A DNA stretch of 64,000 bases from Alphaproteobacteria bacterium (lineage in GTDB: Bacteria; Pseudomonadota; Alphaproteobacteria; CALKHQ01): positions 1,184,001 to 1,248,000 of the forward strand of contig CBDDFZ010000001.1 in NCBI GenBank assembly GCA_965227515.1, read 5' to 3'. A program made the position numbers and the translations under genes. This document shows positions 33,442-37,835 of the stretch, one piece after another (positions within the stretch are counted from its first letter, which is position 1; the number at the start of each line of letters is the position of its first letter). The notes under the pieces are model-generated. The model was not told the DNA's origin. It ran no database searches and was given only the letters and a program-made list of their open reading frames with translations.

Positions 33442-35046
33442 ATGGGCGAGGGCAACGGAACCCATCCGAACGGGCTATTCATCGGCAAGGGCGACGAGGC
33501 GCAGTACCTCGATCTCGCCTATGCCAACCGGCACGGTTTGATCACCGGCGCCACCGGCACCGGCAAGACCGTGACCCTGCAGATCCTGGCCCAGGGTTTC
33601 TCGGACGCCGGCGTGCCGGTCTTCGCGCCGGATATCAAGGGCGACCTCGCCGGCATCTCGCAGGCCGGCGAGATGAAGGATTTTCTCACCAAGCGCGCCA
33701 ACACCATCGGTCTCGACCCCTACGTCATGGGTGGCGCGCCGGTGGCGTTCTGGGACCTGTTCGGCGAGGACGGCCATCCGGTGCGCACAACCGTTTCGGA
33801 GATGGGCCCGCTGCTGCTGTCGCGGCTGATGGGGCTGAACGACGTGCAGTCCGGCGTGCTCGACATCGCGTTCCGCATCGCCGACGAGCAGGGCCTGCTG
33901 GTGCTCGACCTGAAGGACCTGCGCGCCCTGCTGGTCCATGTCGCAGAGCAGGCGAAGGACATCTCGATCACCTATGGCCAGGTCAGCCGGACCTCGGTCG
34001 GCGCAATCCAGCGCCGTTTGCTGTCGCTAGAGGAACAGGGCGGCGACAAGTTCTTCGGCGAGCCTGCGCTGGCGCTTTCGGACCTGATGCGCAAGGACAG
34101 CGCCGGGCGGGGCGTGGTCAACATCCTCTCCGCCTCCGCGCTGATGACCGAGCCGAAGCTCTACGCCACCTTCCTGATGTGGCTGCTGGCCGAACTGTTC
34201 GAGCAATTGCCGGAAGTGGGCGACCCGGACAAGCCGAAGCTGGTGTTCTTCTTCGACGAGGCGCACATGCTGTTCCGCGACGCGCCGCCGGCACTGGTGG
34301 AGAAGATCGAGCAACTGGTGCGGCTGATCCGGTCCAAGGGCGTCGGCGTGTTTTTCGTGACCCAGAGCCCGCTCGATATTCCGGACCGGGTGCTGGGCCA
34401 GCTCGCCTGCCGTATCCAGCACGCGCTACGCGCCTTTACCCCGCGCGACCGCAAGGCGATCGCCGCGGTCGGCGACACCTTCCGCCAGAACCCGAAGTTC
34501 GACGCCTCGGCGGTGATCCCCGAACTCGGCATCGGCGAGGCGCTGGTCTCCACGCTGCAGGCCAAGGGCGTGCCCTCGATGGTGGATCGCACGCTGATCA
34601 GGCCGCCGGCCTCGCGCATGGGCCCGATCAGCGAGCAGGAACGGGCGGCGATACTGGGCGAGAGCCCATTGCGGGCGATCTATGGAAAGGCGATCGACCG
34701 CAAGTCGGCCTACGAGATGCTGCAGGGACGGGCCGACGAACGGCCGATGGACCGCGCCGGCGACGGCGATTACGAAGGCTGGGGCCGCCCGGCCAGGACA
34801 GGCGGCGGCTGGGGTGCCGCCGGGTCGACCGAACGCGCCGAGGTGCAGCGCGACGAGCAGCCGCGCGCGCGGTATTCCCGCGACCGCACCTCCGGCGACG
34901 ATGGATGGGGCAAATCGAAGTCCCGGTCGTCCAGCCGGCAGACCGCAGGCGAGGCATTCATCAAGTCATTGTCGCGCAGCGCCGGCACCCAGATCGGCCG
35001 CCAGCTCACCCGGGGCCTGCTCGGCTCGCTGTTCGGCGGGCGTTAG
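33442..35046 (+). CDS. DUF853 / HerA-like ATPase (YjgR family)
   Basis: '[15 protein letters not shown]', '[12 protein letters not shown]', '[14 protein letters not shown]', 'QHALRAFTP'. Confidence 0.93.
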
Positions 35047-35182
35047 AGCGCCGCGAAACTCATTCCGCGTAGATGGGCTAACGGCCCTTGTTTGGTGGCG
35101 TGCATGAGTGGTCGTCCCTCAAGATGTCGGTGTCATACACGGAGTCGGGTTTGCCGCTCCAAGACATCGAGGAGAGACGACC

Positions 35183-36226
35183 ATGAACTACTATGCCGGG
35201 ATTGACGTTTCTTTGGAATGGTCATCGGTATGCGTTGTTGACGGCGCGGGCGGGATTGTCTGCGAGGCTCGTATTGCGAGCACGCCGGCGGGTTTGTTGT
35301 TGTGGTTTGGGTCTTTGGGGATTTCGGTTGAGCGGATTGGTCTTGAGGCGGGGCCGTTGTCGCAATGGCTTGTGCGGGAGTGCGCGCAGGGCGGTCTTTC
35401 GGTTGAGTTGCTGGAGACGCGTCATGTTGCGCGGGCCCTTTCGACGATGCCGGTGAAGTCGGACCGCTCGGACGCACGCGGGATTGCTCAGCTGATGCGT
35501 GTGGGCTGGTTTCGTCCGGTTCACTGCAAGTCTTTGGCGGCCCAGGAGATGCGGGCCCTTTTGAAGGGTCGCGACCAGCTCCGCGCGAAGCTGCACGATC
35601 TTGAGATGCACCTTCGTGGTCAGCTGCGGAACTTCGGGCTGAAGGTAGGGCACACCACCAGGCGCAGCTTTTCGACACGTATTTCGGAGCTTGTGGCGGG
35701 GCATCCGGTACTGGAGGCGGTGGCGGGGGCGCTGCTGTCGGCACGCGATGGCCTGTTGCTATCGTTCACGGCGCTGGACCGGCAGGTCCGGGCGGCGGCG
35801 CAGGCCGACGATCGCGCTCGCCTGCTGATGACGGTGCCGGGCGTGGGGAGCATTGTCGGACTGACCTACTTGTCGGGAGTGGACGACCCCGGGCGGTTTG
35901 CCTCGTCGCGCCTGGTGGGTGCGCACTTCGGCCTGACGCCGACCAAGCGCCAGTCGGGCGAGAGCGAGGTGATGGGGCGGATATCGAAGGTAGGGGACGC
36001 CGATGTGCGCTCGGCCCTCTATGAGGCGGCACACGTGGTTCTGACCCGGCCGATCGAGGGCGGCTGGCTGAAGAGCTGGGCGATGAAGCTGGCCAGGCGT
36101 GCGGGCATGAGGAAGGCGAAGGTCGCGCTGGCGCGCCGGCTCGCCGTGATCATGCACCGGATGTGGGTTGACGGCACACCGTTCAACCATGCCGGACCGG
36201 TGCGCCCGGCGATGGCGACAGCATGA
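35183..36226 (+). CDS. IS110-family recombinase/transposase
   Basis: DEDD residues in 'AGIDVS', 'GLEAG', 'KSDRSDA'; Tnp-domain 'GLTPTKRQSG' with catalytic Ser; GAGGAG RBS. Confidence 0.96.
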   Translation: MNYYAGIDVSLEWSSVCVVDGAGGIVCEARIASTPAGLLLWFGSLGISVERIGLEAGPLSQWLVRECAQGGLSVELLETRHVARALSTMPVKSDRSDARGIAQLMRVGWFRPVHCKSLAAQEMRALLKGRDQLRAKLHDLEMHLRGQLRNFGLKVGHTTRRSFSTRISELVAGHPVLEAVAGALLSARDGLLLSFTALDRQVRAAAQADDRARLLMTVPGVGSIVGLTYLSGVDDPGRFASSRLVGAHFGLTPTKRQSGESEVMGRISKVGDADVRSALYEAAHVVLTRPIEGGWLKSWAMKLARRAGMRKAKVALARRLAVIMHRMWVDGTPFNHAGPVRPAMATA

Positions 36227-36254
36227 TGGCCGCGGCATAAGGAGAACCGACACA

Positions 36255-36460
36255 CGAGCTTCGACGGGCACCGACACCGGCCCGTCGAGCGCCGTCCCGC
36301 GCCGGGACGATGGATCAGGTCAGGCCGCCATCCGGGATGTCGCCTCGCATGAGAGCACGCTTCCGTAGATTGGACCGACCGATCCTCGCATATCCATCTT
36401 GGCGGCGGCCCTGCGCCGACCCCGTACAGAAGCATGACCCAGGCGCCGGGACGACGAAAA
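36255..36460 (+). ncRNA. Putative bridge RNA/seekRNA
   Basis: Stem-loops flank CATCCGGG and CGTAG (target matches) and CCATCTT and TACAGAAG (donor-junction matches). Ends are approximate. Confidence 0.75.
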
Positions 36461-36490
36461 AGGGATTGACCAACAATGGCCCGTTACAGA

Positions 36491-36590
36491 AGCCCGGATG
36501 CAGCGGCGCGCAATCCGGGGCCTTTAGTGCTGGAAGGCTGGGCGATGGAAGGTATGTCCCCGGGTTTCGCTGCGCTCCACCCGGGCTACG
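36491..36590. repeat. GTAG-type REP doublet (IS target), with its first bases left at 35068-35072
   Basis: CGTAG|CCCGGATGCAGCGGCGCGCAATCCGGGG ... CCCCGGGTTTCGCTGCGCTCCACCCGGGCTACG. Confidence 0.85.
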
Positions 36591-36623
36591 ATTGTTGGTG
36601 CCTTCCGATCGCAACGGTCATGC

Positions 36624-36653
36624 AAAAGGCCGCGCCCAAAGAAGGACGCGGCC
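36624..36653 (-). terminator. Rho-independent terminator candidate for the TelA gene
   Basis: - strand GGCCGCGTCC-TTCTTT-GGGCGCGGCC followed by TTTT. Confidence 0.6.
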
Positions 36654-36680
36654 CTTGGCAGTTCGATTCTGAAGTGAGCG

Positions 36681-37835
36681 TCAGGCGGTGGCCTGGGCGG
36701 CGCGCTGCAGCGATTCCTTCAGCTTGTTCTCGGCGTCGATCAGGTCCTGTTCCGCCGCGCGGCGCTTGGTGCGCCCTTCCTCGGCGATGCGGATCGAATC
36801 CTCGATGGTGCCGATCAGGTTCTCGTTCGCCGCCTTCACGACCTCGATGTCGTAGATGCCGCGCTCCATCTGCTCGCGGATCTGCGCGTTGGACTGGCGC
36901 AGATTTGCGGCGTTGGCGCTCAGCAGCTCGTTGTTCAGGTCGTGGACCGCCTTCACCGTCTCGCCGGCCTCCGCCGCGCGATACATGGTCACCGCCTGGG
37001 CGAGCTGGGTCTTCCACAGCGGGACGGTGTTCAGGAGGGCGGACTGGATCTTGTTGACCAGCATCTTGTCGTTTTCCTGCACCAGCCGGATGGAGGGCAG
37101 GGACTGCATGACGACGGTGCGGGTCAGCTTCAGGTCGTGGACCCGGCGCTCCAGCTCGTCGCGCGCCGAACTCAGGTCGCGCAGCGCCTGGGCATCGGCC
37201 ATGTCGCCGGTTTCCTCGGCCTTCTTCGCCAGCGCCGGGATGTCGGTCTCGTCCAGCCGGCGCAGCTTCTCCTCGCCGGCGGCGATGTAGTCGGCCAGCT
37301 CGTGGAAATACTCCAGCGTCGACTCATACAGCCGGTCGAGCATCAGGATGTCCTTCAGGAGCTGCTGCTTGTGCTTGTCCAGCGTGTTGGTCAGGCTGTC
37401 GATCTGGTTGCCGACGGTCTCGTACTGCTGGATGAAGCGGGCCACCGGCGAGATGGCACCGAACATGCGCGCGATGAAGCCCGGCTTCTTGCCGTCCTTC
37501 AGGTCGTCGATCTCCAGGCCGCGTACCTGGAGCATCATGTTGTTGAGCGCTTCGCCGGCCGGGCCGGTGTCCTTGTTGCGCACGCCTTCCAGCATGGTTT
37601 CCGACACTTCGGTCACCTGGCGCTGGGCCTGTACGCCAAAGGCGATGATCGAGTGCGAATCGCTCATGTCGATCTGCTCGATCAGACTCTCTATCTTCTG
37701 CTTCTCTTCCGCCGACGCCTCGTTGTAGACGACGATGTTGGCGGCAGGTTCGGTCAGCGTCTTCAGCGCCTCGTCAGGCACTTCGGTTGCGGTCACGGTG
37801 GGTGCGGCAACCGTCTGGGTCTGGGTCTCGCTCAT
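36681..37835 (-). CDS. Toxic anion resistance protein (TelA family)
   Basis: 'AFGVQAQ', 'LERRVHDLKLTR...QSLPSIRLVQEND', 'TVPLWKTQLAQA'. Confidence 0.9.
   Translation of the reverse strand: MSETQTQTVAAPTVTATEVPDEALKTLTEPAANIVVYNEASAEEKQKIESLIEQIDMSDSHSIIAFGVQAQRQVTEVSETMLEGVRNKDTGPAGEALNNMMLQVRGLEIDDLKDGKKPGFIARMFGAISPVARFIQQYETVGNQIDSLTNTLDKHKQQLLKDILMLDRLYESTLEYFHELADYIAAGEEKLRRLDETDIPALAKKAEETGDMADAQALRDLSSARDELERRVHDLKLTRTVVMQSLPSIRLVQENDKMLVNKIQSALLNTVPLWKTQLAQAVTMYRAAEAGETVKAVHDLNNELLSANAANLRQSNAQIREQMERGIYDIEVVKAANENLIGTIEDSIRIAEEGRTKRRAAEQDLIDAENKLKESLQRAAQATA

What the first reader, a model, noticed from the sequence alone, without database searches (positions are those of the whole stretch)
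35068..36590. IS1111-type element whose 3' end encodes a fully readable bridge/seek RNA aimed at a host REP
Seen: the left junction is CCGCGT-AG-ATGGGC and the right junction is TACAGA-AG-CCCGGATG. Excision gives target CGT-AG-CCCGGATG and circle (donor) junction TACAGA-AG-ATGG. The 3' non-coding end holds four matches in order: CATCCGGG (36329-36, reverse complement of the right target flank), CGTAG (36364-68, left target plus core), CCATCTT (36394-400, reverse complement of AAGATGG) and TACAGAAG (36425-32, left donor plus core). The target pair is enclosed by stem GGATCAGGTC/GACCGATCC; the donor pair flanks hairpin GGCGGCG..CGCCGACC. Known: IS110/IS1111 recombinases use such bispecific RNAs. 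Inference: this is an intact RNA-guided recombinase with an AG core and a decodable specificity, possibly an uncharacterised member.
Basis: partly seen in the sequence, partly recalled or inferred. Interest (0 to 1): 0.88.

Follow-up and report, generated by a model that had tools for sequence, protein, structure and literature searches.

The report
REP-targeting IS1111 element with bridge RNA
This is an intact, multi-copy insertion sequence of the IS1111 group whose 3' end encodes a guide RNA that matches both the repeated host palindrome it inserts into and its own joined ends: a clear new example of a mechanism already described in 2024.

Summary
Window 35073-36492 is a 1420-bp IS1111-group element. 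It carries a 347-aa IS110-family RNA-guided transposase, subterminal inverted repeats, a 110-nt left end and a 266-nt right non-coding end. The genome holds 20 full copies and one deleted copy, all at GTAG|CCYGGRTG of a REP with 114 further uninterrupted copies.

Seventeen homologous 3' ends share four helices: 92% of cells are paired against 36-50% when slid, and 21 of 35 pairs have compensatory changes. The variable loops track the flanks. The right-target guide matches its own flank over at least 7 nt in 11 of 15 distinct RNAs, against 3 of 204 cross pairings. The left-donor guide equals the element's last 7-8 nt in 17 of 17.

Inside this genome, two subfamilies differ by one guide base (G or A) and occupy REP variants accordingly (Fisher p = 4.6e-4).

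The kind is known: seekRNA and bridge RNA were published in 2024, and REP targeting and an AG core are already described. No RNA data exist for this organism, so expression is inferred. I rate it a new member of a known kind, of moderate interest.

The parts
35065..35072 (+). Left target flank plus core (CCGCGT-AG); the GTAG is the 5' edge of the REP
   Evidence: GTAG precedes all 21 of 21 copies and CGTAG precedes 16 of 21.
35073..36492 (+). IS1111-group insertion sequence, 1420 bp (the AG core is counted at the right end)
   Evidence: There are 20 full copies at 89-100% identity and 1 internally deleted copy in the genome, all with identical ends.
35079..35087 (+). Left subterminal inverted repeat TAACGGCCC, starting 7 nt from the end
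   Evidence: it matches the reverse complement of 36478-36486 at 8 of 9 positions. The repeat covaries between the two ends in 15 homologues (TAACGGGCC, TAATCGGCC, TATCGGGGC, TAATGGGCC, CTAATCGGGGTGATTGG).
35088..35182 (+). 5' untranslated leader with a conserved hairpin; its outer stem appears to cover the ribosome-binding site (GAGGAG) just before the ATG
   Evidence: RNAalifold on 11 homologues gives 17 pairs, 7 with compensatory changes. The outer stem was read by eye only.
35183..36226 (+). Transposase gene, 347 aa: DEDD RuvC-like domain (D8, E55, D94, D97) and C-terminal domain with S258 in GLTPTKRQSG
   Evidence: (IS621 structure 8wt6, E = 2.6e-11, aligned over the serine motif). The frame is open in 20 of 21 copies.
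36295..36450 (+). Predicted bridge/seekRNA core, 156 nt, closed by helix P1 (36295-36306 with 36439-36450)
   Evidence: P1 has 10 pairs, 6 with compensatory changes, and 89.9% of cells are paired.
36312..36385 (+). Target-binding arm: helix P2 (36312-36327 with 36371-36385) enclosing the two target guides and the small hairpin P3 (36342-36356)
   Evidence: P2 has 12 pairs, 95.1% paired, 5 compensatory. P3 has 6 pairs, all 6 compensatory.
36328..36336 (+). Right-target guide CCATCCGGG, complementary to the top strand CCCGGATG(G) right of the core. Base 36334 is G in subfamily A and A in subfamily B.
36363..36368 (+). Left-target guide CCGTAG, the same sense as the left flank plus the AG core, so it would pair with the bottom strand. 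It is followed by an AGAT that is invariant in the 17 aligned RNAs, part of an AGATTG that reads AGATCG in two of them.
36394..36400 (+). Right-donor guide CCATCTT, complementary to A-AG-ATGG of the joined ends
   Evidence: 5-8 nt complementary in 12 of 12 homologues with a known left end. GGCAT pairs with ATGCC in L041 and L065, where the left end reads ATGCCG.
36402..36423 (+). Helix P4, the hairpin between the two donor guides
   Evidence: 7 pairs, 95.8% paired, 4 compensatory.
36425..36432 (+). Left-donor guide TACAGAAG, identical to the last 8 nt of the element (36485-36492)
   Evidence: identical over 7-8 nt in 17 of 17, in two forms (ACAGAAG in 6, AGAGAAG in 11). A third form, AGCGAAG, occurs in L035.
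36466..36471 (+). Outward-facing TTGACC, a candidate -35 box. 17 nt later, GAAG (36489-36492) would join AT of the left end in a circle, giving GAAGAT as a -10.
   Evidence: TTGAC is invariant in 17 of 17. The spacing was read off the alignment: 17 nt in 14 and 18 nt in 3. Junction promoters are described for ISEc11, IS621 and ISPpu10 (passages of PMC12288879). This is inference only.
36478..36486 (+). Right subterminal inverted repeat GGCCCGTTA
36493..36590 (+). Right target flank: the REP unit CCCGGATG..ATCCGGGG (36493-36520), then a second, inverted REP unit whose minus strand reads GTAGCCCGGGTG (36590 back to 36579), an unoccupied target
   Evidence: 114 uninterrupted GTAGCCYGGRTG sites in the genome against about 6 expected from composition.

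Best explanation
Window 35073-36492 is an active or recently active IS1111-group insertion sequence that finds its insertion site with an RNA made from its own 3' non-coding end.

The RNA (about 36295-36450) folds into a closing helix P1 that holds two arms.
- In the target arm (helix P2), CCAUCCGGG pairs with the top strand of the REP arm CCCGGATGG. CCGUAG pairs with the bottom strand of the left flank plus the AG core.
- In the donor part, CCAUCUU and UACAGAAG lie on either side of hairpin P4. They pair in the same two-strand manner with the joined ends (TACAGA-AG-ATGG) of the excised circle.

The DEDD/serine transposase then exchanges strands at the AG dinucleotide. The element ends up between GTAG and CCYGGRTG with AG on both sides.

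What is shown here: the anatomy, the copies and their sites, the conserved RNA fold, and the covariation of all four guides.

What is inferred from relatives studied at the bench (ISEc11, ISPa11, ISKpn4, IS621): that the RNA is made, binds the protein and directs the reaction, and that a circle is the donor. The proposal that the circle junction completes a promoter (TTGACC, 17 nt, GAAG|AT) is also an inference.
For: 1. Protein. NF033542 'IS110 family RNA-guided transposase' scores 239 bits against a cut-off of 140. PF01548 and PF02371 are present. The IS621 structure 8wt6 matches at E = 2.6e-11 over the serine motif. D8, E55, D94, D97 and S258 are present in 20 of 21 copies.

2. Copies. There are 20 full copies and 1 deleted copy. 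All 21 lie at GTAG|CCYGGRTG and all have different left flanks. 20 of 21 frames are open.

3. Target. The REP family has 114 uninterrupted sites against about 6 expected.

4. RNA fold in 17 homologues. 92.0% of cells are paired against 36-50% with partners slid. 21 of 35 pairs have compensatory changes, and 0 of 500 shuffles reach the observed covariation score.

5. Right-target guide. At least 7 contiguous Watson-Crick pairs with the element's own flank occur in 11 of 15 distinct RNAs, against 3 of 204 cross pairings. Those 3 are between loci with related targets. In addition, 4 of 4 plasmid copies read by eye match over 7-9 nt.

6. Left-target guide. The mean is 2.9 matches beyond the core with the element's own flank (13 loci), against 0.70 in 148 cross pairs.

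7. Donor guides. The left-donor guide equals the element's end in 17 of 17, in two co-varying forms. The right-donor guide matches the junction over 5-8 nt in 12 of 12.

8. Natural experiment in this genome. Subfamily A (guide G at 36334) sits at CCC sites in 11 cases and CCT sites in 2. Subfamily B (guide A) sits at CCC sites in 0 cases and CCT sites in 7 (Fisher p = 4.6e-4). A occupies 9 of 27 perfectly matching CCCGGATG sites against 4 of 107 other sites (p = 6.6e-5).

9. Order of matches. The top-strand match lies 5' of the bottom-strand match, as reported for IS1111 seekRNAs (PMC11187229, section 9).
Against: - Single-sequence folding is not better than shuffles (z = -1.58 and -0.31), and the minimum-energy fold buries the guides.
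- 4 of 15 distinct RNAs lack a 7-nt Watson-Crick match to their own right flank. L025, L032 and L048 reach 3-4 nt. The subfamily B copy L015 reaches 5, or 9 with G-U pairs.
- The left-target match in the window copy is only CGTAG, a word found in 22% of shuffles. In 5 of 21 copies the base before GTAG does not match the guide.
- C at the position before GTAG is no commoner at occupied sites (16 of 21) than at empty sites (81 of 114).
- The right-target guide of this element does not pair with the G of the core.
- 2 of 13 subfamily A copies sit at sites that need two G-T wobble pairs.
- No sigma-70-like promoter was found in 34900-36700, so the source of the transcript is unknown.
- The 5' strand of P1 can instead form a local hairpin (GTCCC..GGGAC, present in all 17 rows), which excludes part of P1.
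- Rfam has no family for this RNA, so there is no independent family call.
Confidence: 0.9

Rival explanations
1. The internal words are DNA-level features and not RNA guides: duplicated or alternative element ends and a captured REP fragment. On this view the protein itself recognises the REP.
For: The left-donor word and its surroundings (CCCGTACAGAAGC) resemble the true right end (CCCGTTACAGAAGC). ISPpu9 uses alternative end boxes to form several circles (abstract and passages of PMC12288879). The REP is a palindrome, so a REP-like word inside the element could be a relic.
Against: The words lie in unpaired loops of a fold supported by compensatory changes in 21 of 35 pairs. The target words change with the target in homologues whose scaffold is conserved. 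A one-base guide difference goes with a one-base target difference within one genome. Relatives were shown at the bench to need the RNA (PMC11187229, sections 9 and 10).
Confidence: 0.03
2. The RNA guides target choice, but the copy in the window, or the whole family in this genome, is now immobile. The copies would then be the trace of a past burst.
For: No circle junction or empty site at this locus was seen in public contigs (contigs cannot show rare forms). No promoter was predicted. One copy is internally deleted.
Against: 20 of 21 copies keep an open frame with all catalytic motifs. Thirteen copies are 99-100% identical and their RNA regions are almost identical: one substitution in c12 outside the guides, and c11 is 6 nt shorter. 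The window copy encodes the same protein as three other copies.
Confidence: 0.06
3. The split of REP variants between the two subfamilies reflects history and not base pairing: for example, bursts at different times, when different REP variants were free.
For: There are only 20 insertions. The subfamilies also differ elsewhere (95-96% identity, a 9-bp insertion after the stop codon, changes in P4).
Against: The direction of the difference is exactly what pairing predicts (G with C, A with T). No subfamily B copy lies at any of 89 CCC sites, which would need an A-C mismatch (p = 3.5e-4). Subfamily A prefers the only variant it matches perfectly, although that variant is a minority of sites: 27 of 134.
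Confidence: 0.15

Closest known systems
IS1111-family seekRNA elements ISEc11, ISPa11, ISKpn4, ISPst6 (Siddiquee et al. 2024, PMC11187229; abstract and sections 6, 9, 10, 13 read)
   Same: The non-coding region lies downstream of the gene. Subterminal inverted repeats are present. The transposase falls in the 330-350 aa range and carries GL-P----S(t)G. The RNA carries one word complementary to the top strand 5' of one complementary to the bottom strand. The predicted core (156 nt) is close in length to the 154-nt long seekRNA of ISEc11. ISPa11 also targets a REP.
   Different: The sequence relation to those elements was not measured, because no ISfinder sequences were at hand. The sections of that paper I read describe the target matches. 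Here, donor-matching words and a closing helix P1 are also supported by covariation. No bench data exist for this element.
IS621 bridge RNA and recombinase (Durrant et al. 2024, PMC11208160, passages; structure 8wt6)
   Same: The protein is a DEDD plus serine recombinase (E = 2.6e-11 to 8wt6). The RNA is bispecific, with a target loop and a donor loop, each reading both strands around a dinucleotide core. That paper predicts a bridge RNA in the right end of 93% of IS1111 elements.
   Different: In IS621 the RNA lies in the left end, upstream of the gene, the order of strand matches is reversed, the inverted repeats are very short and the core is CT (recalled). Here the core is AG. Only the C-terminal half aligns significantly.
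REP-targeting elements ISPpu9, ISPpu10, ISPa11, ISRm19, ISRm22, ISPsy8 (Tobes and Pareja 2006, PMC1525189, abstract; PMC12288879, abstract and passages)
   Same: They insert specifically into REP sequences. ISPpu9 has AG dinucleotides on both sides of the element. ISPpu10 has a junction promoter with the -35 box from the right end and the -10 box from the left end.
   Different: The hosts and REP families are different. Sinorhizobium plasmids hold relatives at about 65% DNA identity, which may or may not be ISRm19/22; this was not checked. No separate small-RNA module like ssr9 was seen here: a profile search found 20 full RNA copies and 1 partial copy, all inside IS copies.

Membership tests
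IS110 family (RNA-guided DEDD transposases) | The protein matches the curated family model above its cut-off | tested here: met
   NF033542 at 239.4 bits against a cut-off of 140, covering 4-333 of 347 aa. PF01548 at 47.9 bits (cut-off 29) and PF02371 at 73.2 bits (cut-off 21.3).
IS110 family (RNA-guided DEDD transposases) | DEDD catalytic residues and a conserved serine in G--P----SG | tested here: met
   D8, E55, D94, D97 and S258 in GLTPTKRQSG. The serine motif aligns with GLTPRRYESG of IS621. The N-terminal alignment to IS621 is weak, so the DEDD assignment rests on motif position.
IS110 family (RNA-guided DEDD transposases) | No long target duplication; a short shared core at both junctions | tested here: met
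   AG is shared at both junctions in 21 of 21 copies, and nothing longer is shared.
IS1111 group | Subterminal inverted repeats of about 7-17 bp, set in from the ends | tested here: met
   TAACGGCCC and GGCCCGTTA match at 8 of 9 positions, starting 7 nt from each end. They extend with gaps to about 18 bp and covary in 15 homologues.
IS1111 group | The longer non-coding region lies downstream of the transposase gene | tested here: met
   110 nt upstream against 266 nt downstream.
IS1111 group | Transposase of 330-350 aa with GL-P----S(t)G | tested here: met
   347 aa with GLTPTKRQSG at 250-259. The criterion is taken from PMC11187229 section 6.
IS1111 group | The transposase groups with IS1111 and not IS110 in a tree of ISfinder entries | not testable with these tools
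   No ISfinder sequences were available.
Bridge RNA / seekRNA | Two words in one loop that match opposite strands of the target on either side of the core | tested here: met
   The own-flank match is at least 7 nt in 11 of 15 against 3 of 204 cross pairs, and there is a within-genome association (p = 4.6e-4).
Bridge RNA / seekRNA | Two words that match the joined ends of the element (the donor) | tested here: met
   The left-donor guide matches in 17 of 17 and the right-donor guide in 12 of 12. There is little variation to test: two or three forms of each.
Bridge RNA / seekRNA | A conserved secondary structure that presents the words in loops | tested here: met
Bridge RNA / seekRNA | The RNA is made and binds the transposase; guide changes retarget the element | not testable with these tools
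   No RNA run is listed for this organism. This needs bench work.
Rfam RNA family | A match to a curated covariance model | tested here: not met
   The only matches in 34800-36900 are two chance-level ones outside the RNA (E = 1.6 and 8.1). Rfam 15 seems to hold no model for this RNA.

The most novel reading that the evidence does not exclude
Two guide alleles of one IS, differing by a single base in the right-target guide (G or A at 36334), coexist in one genome and have divided the variants of the host REP between them according to pairing strength. Perfect Watson-Crick sites are preferred, G-T wobble sites are tolerated, and A-C mismatch sites are never used. This would be natural retargeting caught in the act. 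It would also give a ready-made in-vivo measure of single-base discrimination by an IS1111 bridge RNA. A further open point is that the 5' strand of the closing helix P1 can instead form a conserved local hairpin, which could act as a folding switch.
Probability: 0.55. Interest if true: 0.45.

Novelty: new member of a known kind. Interest (0 to 1): 0.35.

Why it matters
It gives no new principle. RNA-guided IS110/IS1111 recombination, REP targeting and AG cores are all in print.

Its value is as a clean, fully decodable natural example.
- There are 21 independent insertions and 114 free target sites in one genome.
- Two guide alleles differ by one base.
- The set of alphaproteobacterial homologues has guides that retarget while the scaffold stays fixed.

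Together these give base-pairing rules (mismatch and wobble tolerance, guide lengths, register shifts) for the less-studied IS1111 type of bridge RNA. They also yield a covariation-supported fold with a closing helix, which could help in designing compact recombinase/RNA pairs.

For genome annotation, it shows that about 28 kb of this genome is one IS that marks REP sites.

Tried and rejected
**Rfam.** A search of 34800-36900 at E up to 10 gave only two chance-level matches (rli61, MIR5534) outside the RNA. There is no family to file it under.

**Single-sequence folds**. The z-scores are -1.58 and -0.31, and the guides are buried in the minimum-energy fold. I discarded these in favour of the comparative fold.

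**Promoter scan**. There are no sigma-70-like sites. The three 'terminator-like' sites are the subterminal repeats themselves.

**Public runs**. No RNA holder is listed, so nothing can be said on expression.

**Reads laid on 34600-36950 from four DNA contig runs**.
- No contig joins 35072 to 36493 (an empty site).
- No contig joins 36492 to 35073 (a circle). Contigs cannot show rare forms.
- One contig of run X1 'goes back' from 36590 to 35068. It fits the left end with 7 other letters and 2 gaps. I read it as a REP unit lying before another, diverged IS copy, not as a circle junction. This was not resolved.

**Relatives searched with the right flank**. The neighbouring gene is only about 83% identical in the three genomes of the same family, and the intergenic REP region is not conserved. 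No orthologous empty site could be read.

**A 'handshake' reading.** I looked at the bases after the core in the left-donor guide (AGAAG-C) and the left-target guide (AG-AT). The base after the left-donor guide agrees with the first target base in some loci only, by eye. I dropped this as a claim.

**Regex attempts to find ends** were partly wrong and were replaced.

**Rows left out of the counts.**
- L023: truncated, no right end.
- L029, L043, L049, L050, L051: partial protein matches, not examined.
- L034: no recognisable RNA after the gene.
- L036, L039, L046: distant; ends not located by my patterns.
- L035: read by eye only. It shows a 9-nt right-target match and the AGCGAAG donor form.
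- L027, L031, L037, L038, L040: left out of the 15 as repeats of the guides of L026 and L030. Each matches its own flank over 8-12 nt.
- c21 (the deleted copy) is left out of the subfamily table.

**ISfinder** could not be queried, and supplementary files of the papers were closed. The lists of predicted bridge RNAs and targets in the supplements of PMC11208160 and PMC11187229 may already include this element or a close relative.
Full report
**What is there.** The region holds one open frame of 347 aa on the + strand (35183-36226).
- It matches Pfam DEDD_Tnp_IS110 and Transposase_20.
- It matches the NCBIfam equivalog NF033542, 'IS110 family RNA-guided transposase', at 239 bits against a cut-off of 140.
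- Its C-terminal half aligns with the solved IS621 and ISCro4 transposases (E about 3e-11) across the serine motif.
- The motifs holding D8, E55, D94, D97 and S258 (GLTPTKRQSG) are present.

**Boundaries and copies.** A search of the window's own genome (5.5 Mb, two contigs) with 35073-36492 found 20 full-length copies at 89-100% identity, plus one copy with an internal deletion.
- All 21 begin with ATGGGCTAACGG. Twenty end in TTACAGAAG; the internally deleted copy (c21) ends in TTATAGAAG.
- All 21 are preceded by GTAG and followed by CCYGGRTG.
- The 30 nt further to the left differ in every copy, so these are separate insertions.
- AG is the only sequence shared by the two junctions, so the core is AG and the element is 1420 bp.
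- The frame is open in 20 of 21 copies, and those 20 keep all catalytic motifs.
- The ends carry subterminal inverted repeats that start 7 nt in (TAACGGCCC and GGCCCGTTA). In 15 homologues the two repeats change together.
- With a 110-nt left end and a 266-nt right end, the element meets every IS1111 feature listed by Siddiquee et al. (PMC11187229, section 6).

**The target is a REP.** GTAGCCYGGRTG occurs uninterrupted 114 times in the genome, against about 6 expected from base composition. It is followed by the rest of a roughly 35-bp imperfect palindrome. The window copy lies between the convergent genes for a HerA-like helicase and a TelA protein. A second, inverted and unoccupied REP unit follows at 36559-36590.

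All four are at the stated places. In 200,000 shuffles of the non-coding end, the three long words each occur in 0.2-0.9% of shuffles and CGTAG in 22%. All four together occur in none.

**A conserved RNA fold.** A scan of one genome per species found 29 loci encoding relatives at 43-69% identity, mostly alphaproteobacterial. Their 3' non-coding ends share a scaffold. I aligned 17 of them, including one copy of each subfamily of this genome. RNAalifold gave four helices.
- P1 closes the RNA (window 36295-36306 with 36439-36450).
- P3 is a small hairpin between the two target words.

Counted on the alignment, 92.0% of cells pair, against 36-50% when the partners are slid by 1-3 columns. 21 of 35 pairs show compensatory changes, and no shuffle of 500 reaches the observed covariation. 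The four words lie in the unpaired stretches. The single-sequence fold is not informative.

**Covariation of guides with flanks across genomes.**
- *Right-target guide.* The loop 5' of P3 is complementary to the element's own right flank over at least 7 contiguous bases in 11 of 15 distinct RNAs (median 8, up to 11-12 in the L030 group). That compares with 3 of 204 pairings with other elements' flanks, and those three are between elements with related targets. Examples are AATCCGCC with GGCGGATT (L024), CATGCGGG with CCCGCATG (L026), CATGTCCG with CGGACATG (L030) and CAATGGGTCC with GGACCCATTG (L045). Between L028 and L044, a one-base insertion in the guide matches a one-base shift in the target.
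- *Named plasmid copies.* Four copies (Acidiphilium, Methylocystis, Sinorhizobium, Microvirga) each match over 7-9 bases, read by eye.
- *Misfits.* L025, L032 and L048 reach only 3-4 bases. The flank of L025 fits the guide of the Methylocystis element instead, which hints at mobilisation in trans or later guide change.
- *Left-target guide.* The loop 3' of P3 ends in an AGAT that is invariant in the 17 aligned RNAs (AGATTG in 15 of them, AGATCG in L024 and L042). It repeats the left flank for a mean of 2.9 bases beyond the core (13 loci), against 0.70 in 148 cross pairs.
- *Left-donor guide.* It equals the last 7-8 bases of the element in 17 of 17, in the forms ACAGAAG (6) and AGAGAAG (11), with AGCGAAG in L035.
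- *Right-donor guide.* It is complementary to the joined ends over 5-8 bases in 12 of 12. It changes from CCCAT to GGCAT where the left end changes from ATGGG to ATGCC.

**A natural experiment inside the genome.** The copies form two subfamilies. Thirteen copies carry CCATCCGGG. Seven copies (95-96% identical, with a 9-bp insertion after the stop codon) carry CCATCCAGG.

| Site | Free | Occupied by A | Occupied by B |
|---|---|---|---|
| CCCGGATG | 18 | 9 | 0 |
| CCCGGGTG | 60 | 2 | 0 |
| CCTGGGTG | 33 | 2 | 6 |
| CCTGGATG | 3 | 0 | 1 |

- The guide base goes with the target base at the third position (11:2 against 0:7, Fisher p = 4.6e-4).
- Subfamily A occupies 9 of 27 sites that it matches perfectly, against 4 of 107 other sites (p = 6.6e-5).
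- Subfamily B occupies none of the 89 CCC sites (p = 3.5e-4).
- The U opposite the A/G position tolerates G.
- The left guide cannot be tested this way. GTAG was part of the site definition, and C before GTAG is as common at free sites (81 of 114) as at occupied ones (16 of 21).

**Mechanism.** The geometry is the same in both loops. The 5' word pairs with the top strand to the right of the core, and the 3' word, which includes the core, pairs with the bottom strand to the left.
- This is the order reported for IS1111 seekRNAs, the reverse of IS110-type elements (PMC11187229, abstract and section 9).
- It agrees with the prediction that IS1111 elements carry the bridge RNA in the right end (PMC11208160, passages).
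- That the RNA is made, binds the protein and directs strand exchange at AG through a circular donor is taken from those bench studies and was not tested here.
- No RNA run is listed for this organism. Public contigs show neither a circle junction nor an empty site.
- An outward TTGAC is invariant in all 17 right ends. It stands 17 nt (18 in three loci) before the terminal GAAG, so in a circle GAAG|AT would sit at the -10 position. Such junction promoters are described for ISEc11, IS621 and ISPpu10 but not ISPpu9 (PMC12288879, passages). This is an inference.

**Comparison and novelty.**
- REP-specific insertion of IS110/IS1111 elements is known (ISPa11, ISPpu9, ISPpu10, ISRm19, ISRm22, ISPsy8; abstract of PMC1525189).
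- AG dinucleotides flank ISPpu9.
- Rfam has no model for the RNA.
- The nearest relatives in the collections at hand are about 68% identical in DNA (plasmids) and at most 69% in protein. The element is therefore a distinct IS by the usual naming threshold (recalled). ISfinder and the papers' supplements could not be consulted.
- A profile of the RNA core finds 20 full copies and one partial copy in the genome, all inside IS copies, and no orphans.
- I rate it a new member of a known kind. Its main merit is the within-genome pair of guide alleles and the fully decodable set of homologues.

**Open points.**
- The 5' strand of P1 can alternatively form a local hairpin, GTCCC..GGGAC, which is present but invariant in all 17 rows. 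The two pairings exclude each other.
- The source of the transcript is unknown.

Noticed in passing
window 35088-35182, with L024-L041 left ends: The 5' leader of the transposase gene has a conserved hairpin (17 predicted pairs, 7 compensatory, in 11 homologues). By eye, an outer stem (GGTCGTCCCTC with GAGGAGAGACGACC) would cover the ribosome-binding site just before the ATG. It changes to GCTGCGCTTC with GAAGCGCAGC in the L030 group. This suggests translational control, as described for ISPpu9.
   Followed up: partly
window 36295-36310: GTCCCGCGCCGGGAC can form a local hairpin, conserved but invariant in all 17 homologues. That hairpin competes with the covariation-supported long-range helix P1. 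It may be an alternative fold.
   Followed up: partly
L025 (2603-2815) and L063: The right-target guide of L025 does not match its own flank (AGCGGTTT). The guide of a related Methylocystis plasmid element (AAACCGC) does. This points to possible mobilisation in trans, or guide change after insertion. L032 and L048 are similar misfits.
   Followed up: no
G000:C1:998357-999181 (copy c21): One copy is internally deleted (825 bp). It keeps the left 717 bp and the last 122 bp, so it lacks the target-binding arm of the RNA and has a truncated frame of 236 aa.
   Followed up: partly
G000:C1:694774-696202 (copy c20): The most diverged full copy (89% identity) carries the subfamily B guide and sits at CCTGGATG, the only variant that guide matches perfectly. 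Its right flank is a half REP followed directly by another GTAGCCTGGGTG site.
   Followed up: no
G000, genome-wide: The genome holds 27 matches to DEDD_Tnp_IS110: the 21 copies of this IS, four copies of a second IS110-family element (open frames of 373-378 aa) and two single genes. Their RNAs and targets were not examined.
   Followed up: no
window 36559-36590 and run X1: One public contig joins 36590 to 35068. It reads as a REP unit directly before a diverged IS left end. I take it to be another insertion next to an inverted REP in a related strain, not a circle. This was not resolved.
   Followed up: no
L030, L031, L032, L033, L037, L038, L040 flanks: The relatives in several alphaproteobacterial metagenome-assembled genomes insert at ..AG|CGGACATG. 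Inverted copies of that word lie nearby in the flanks, so this clade seems to target REP-like palindromes in general.
   Followed up: no
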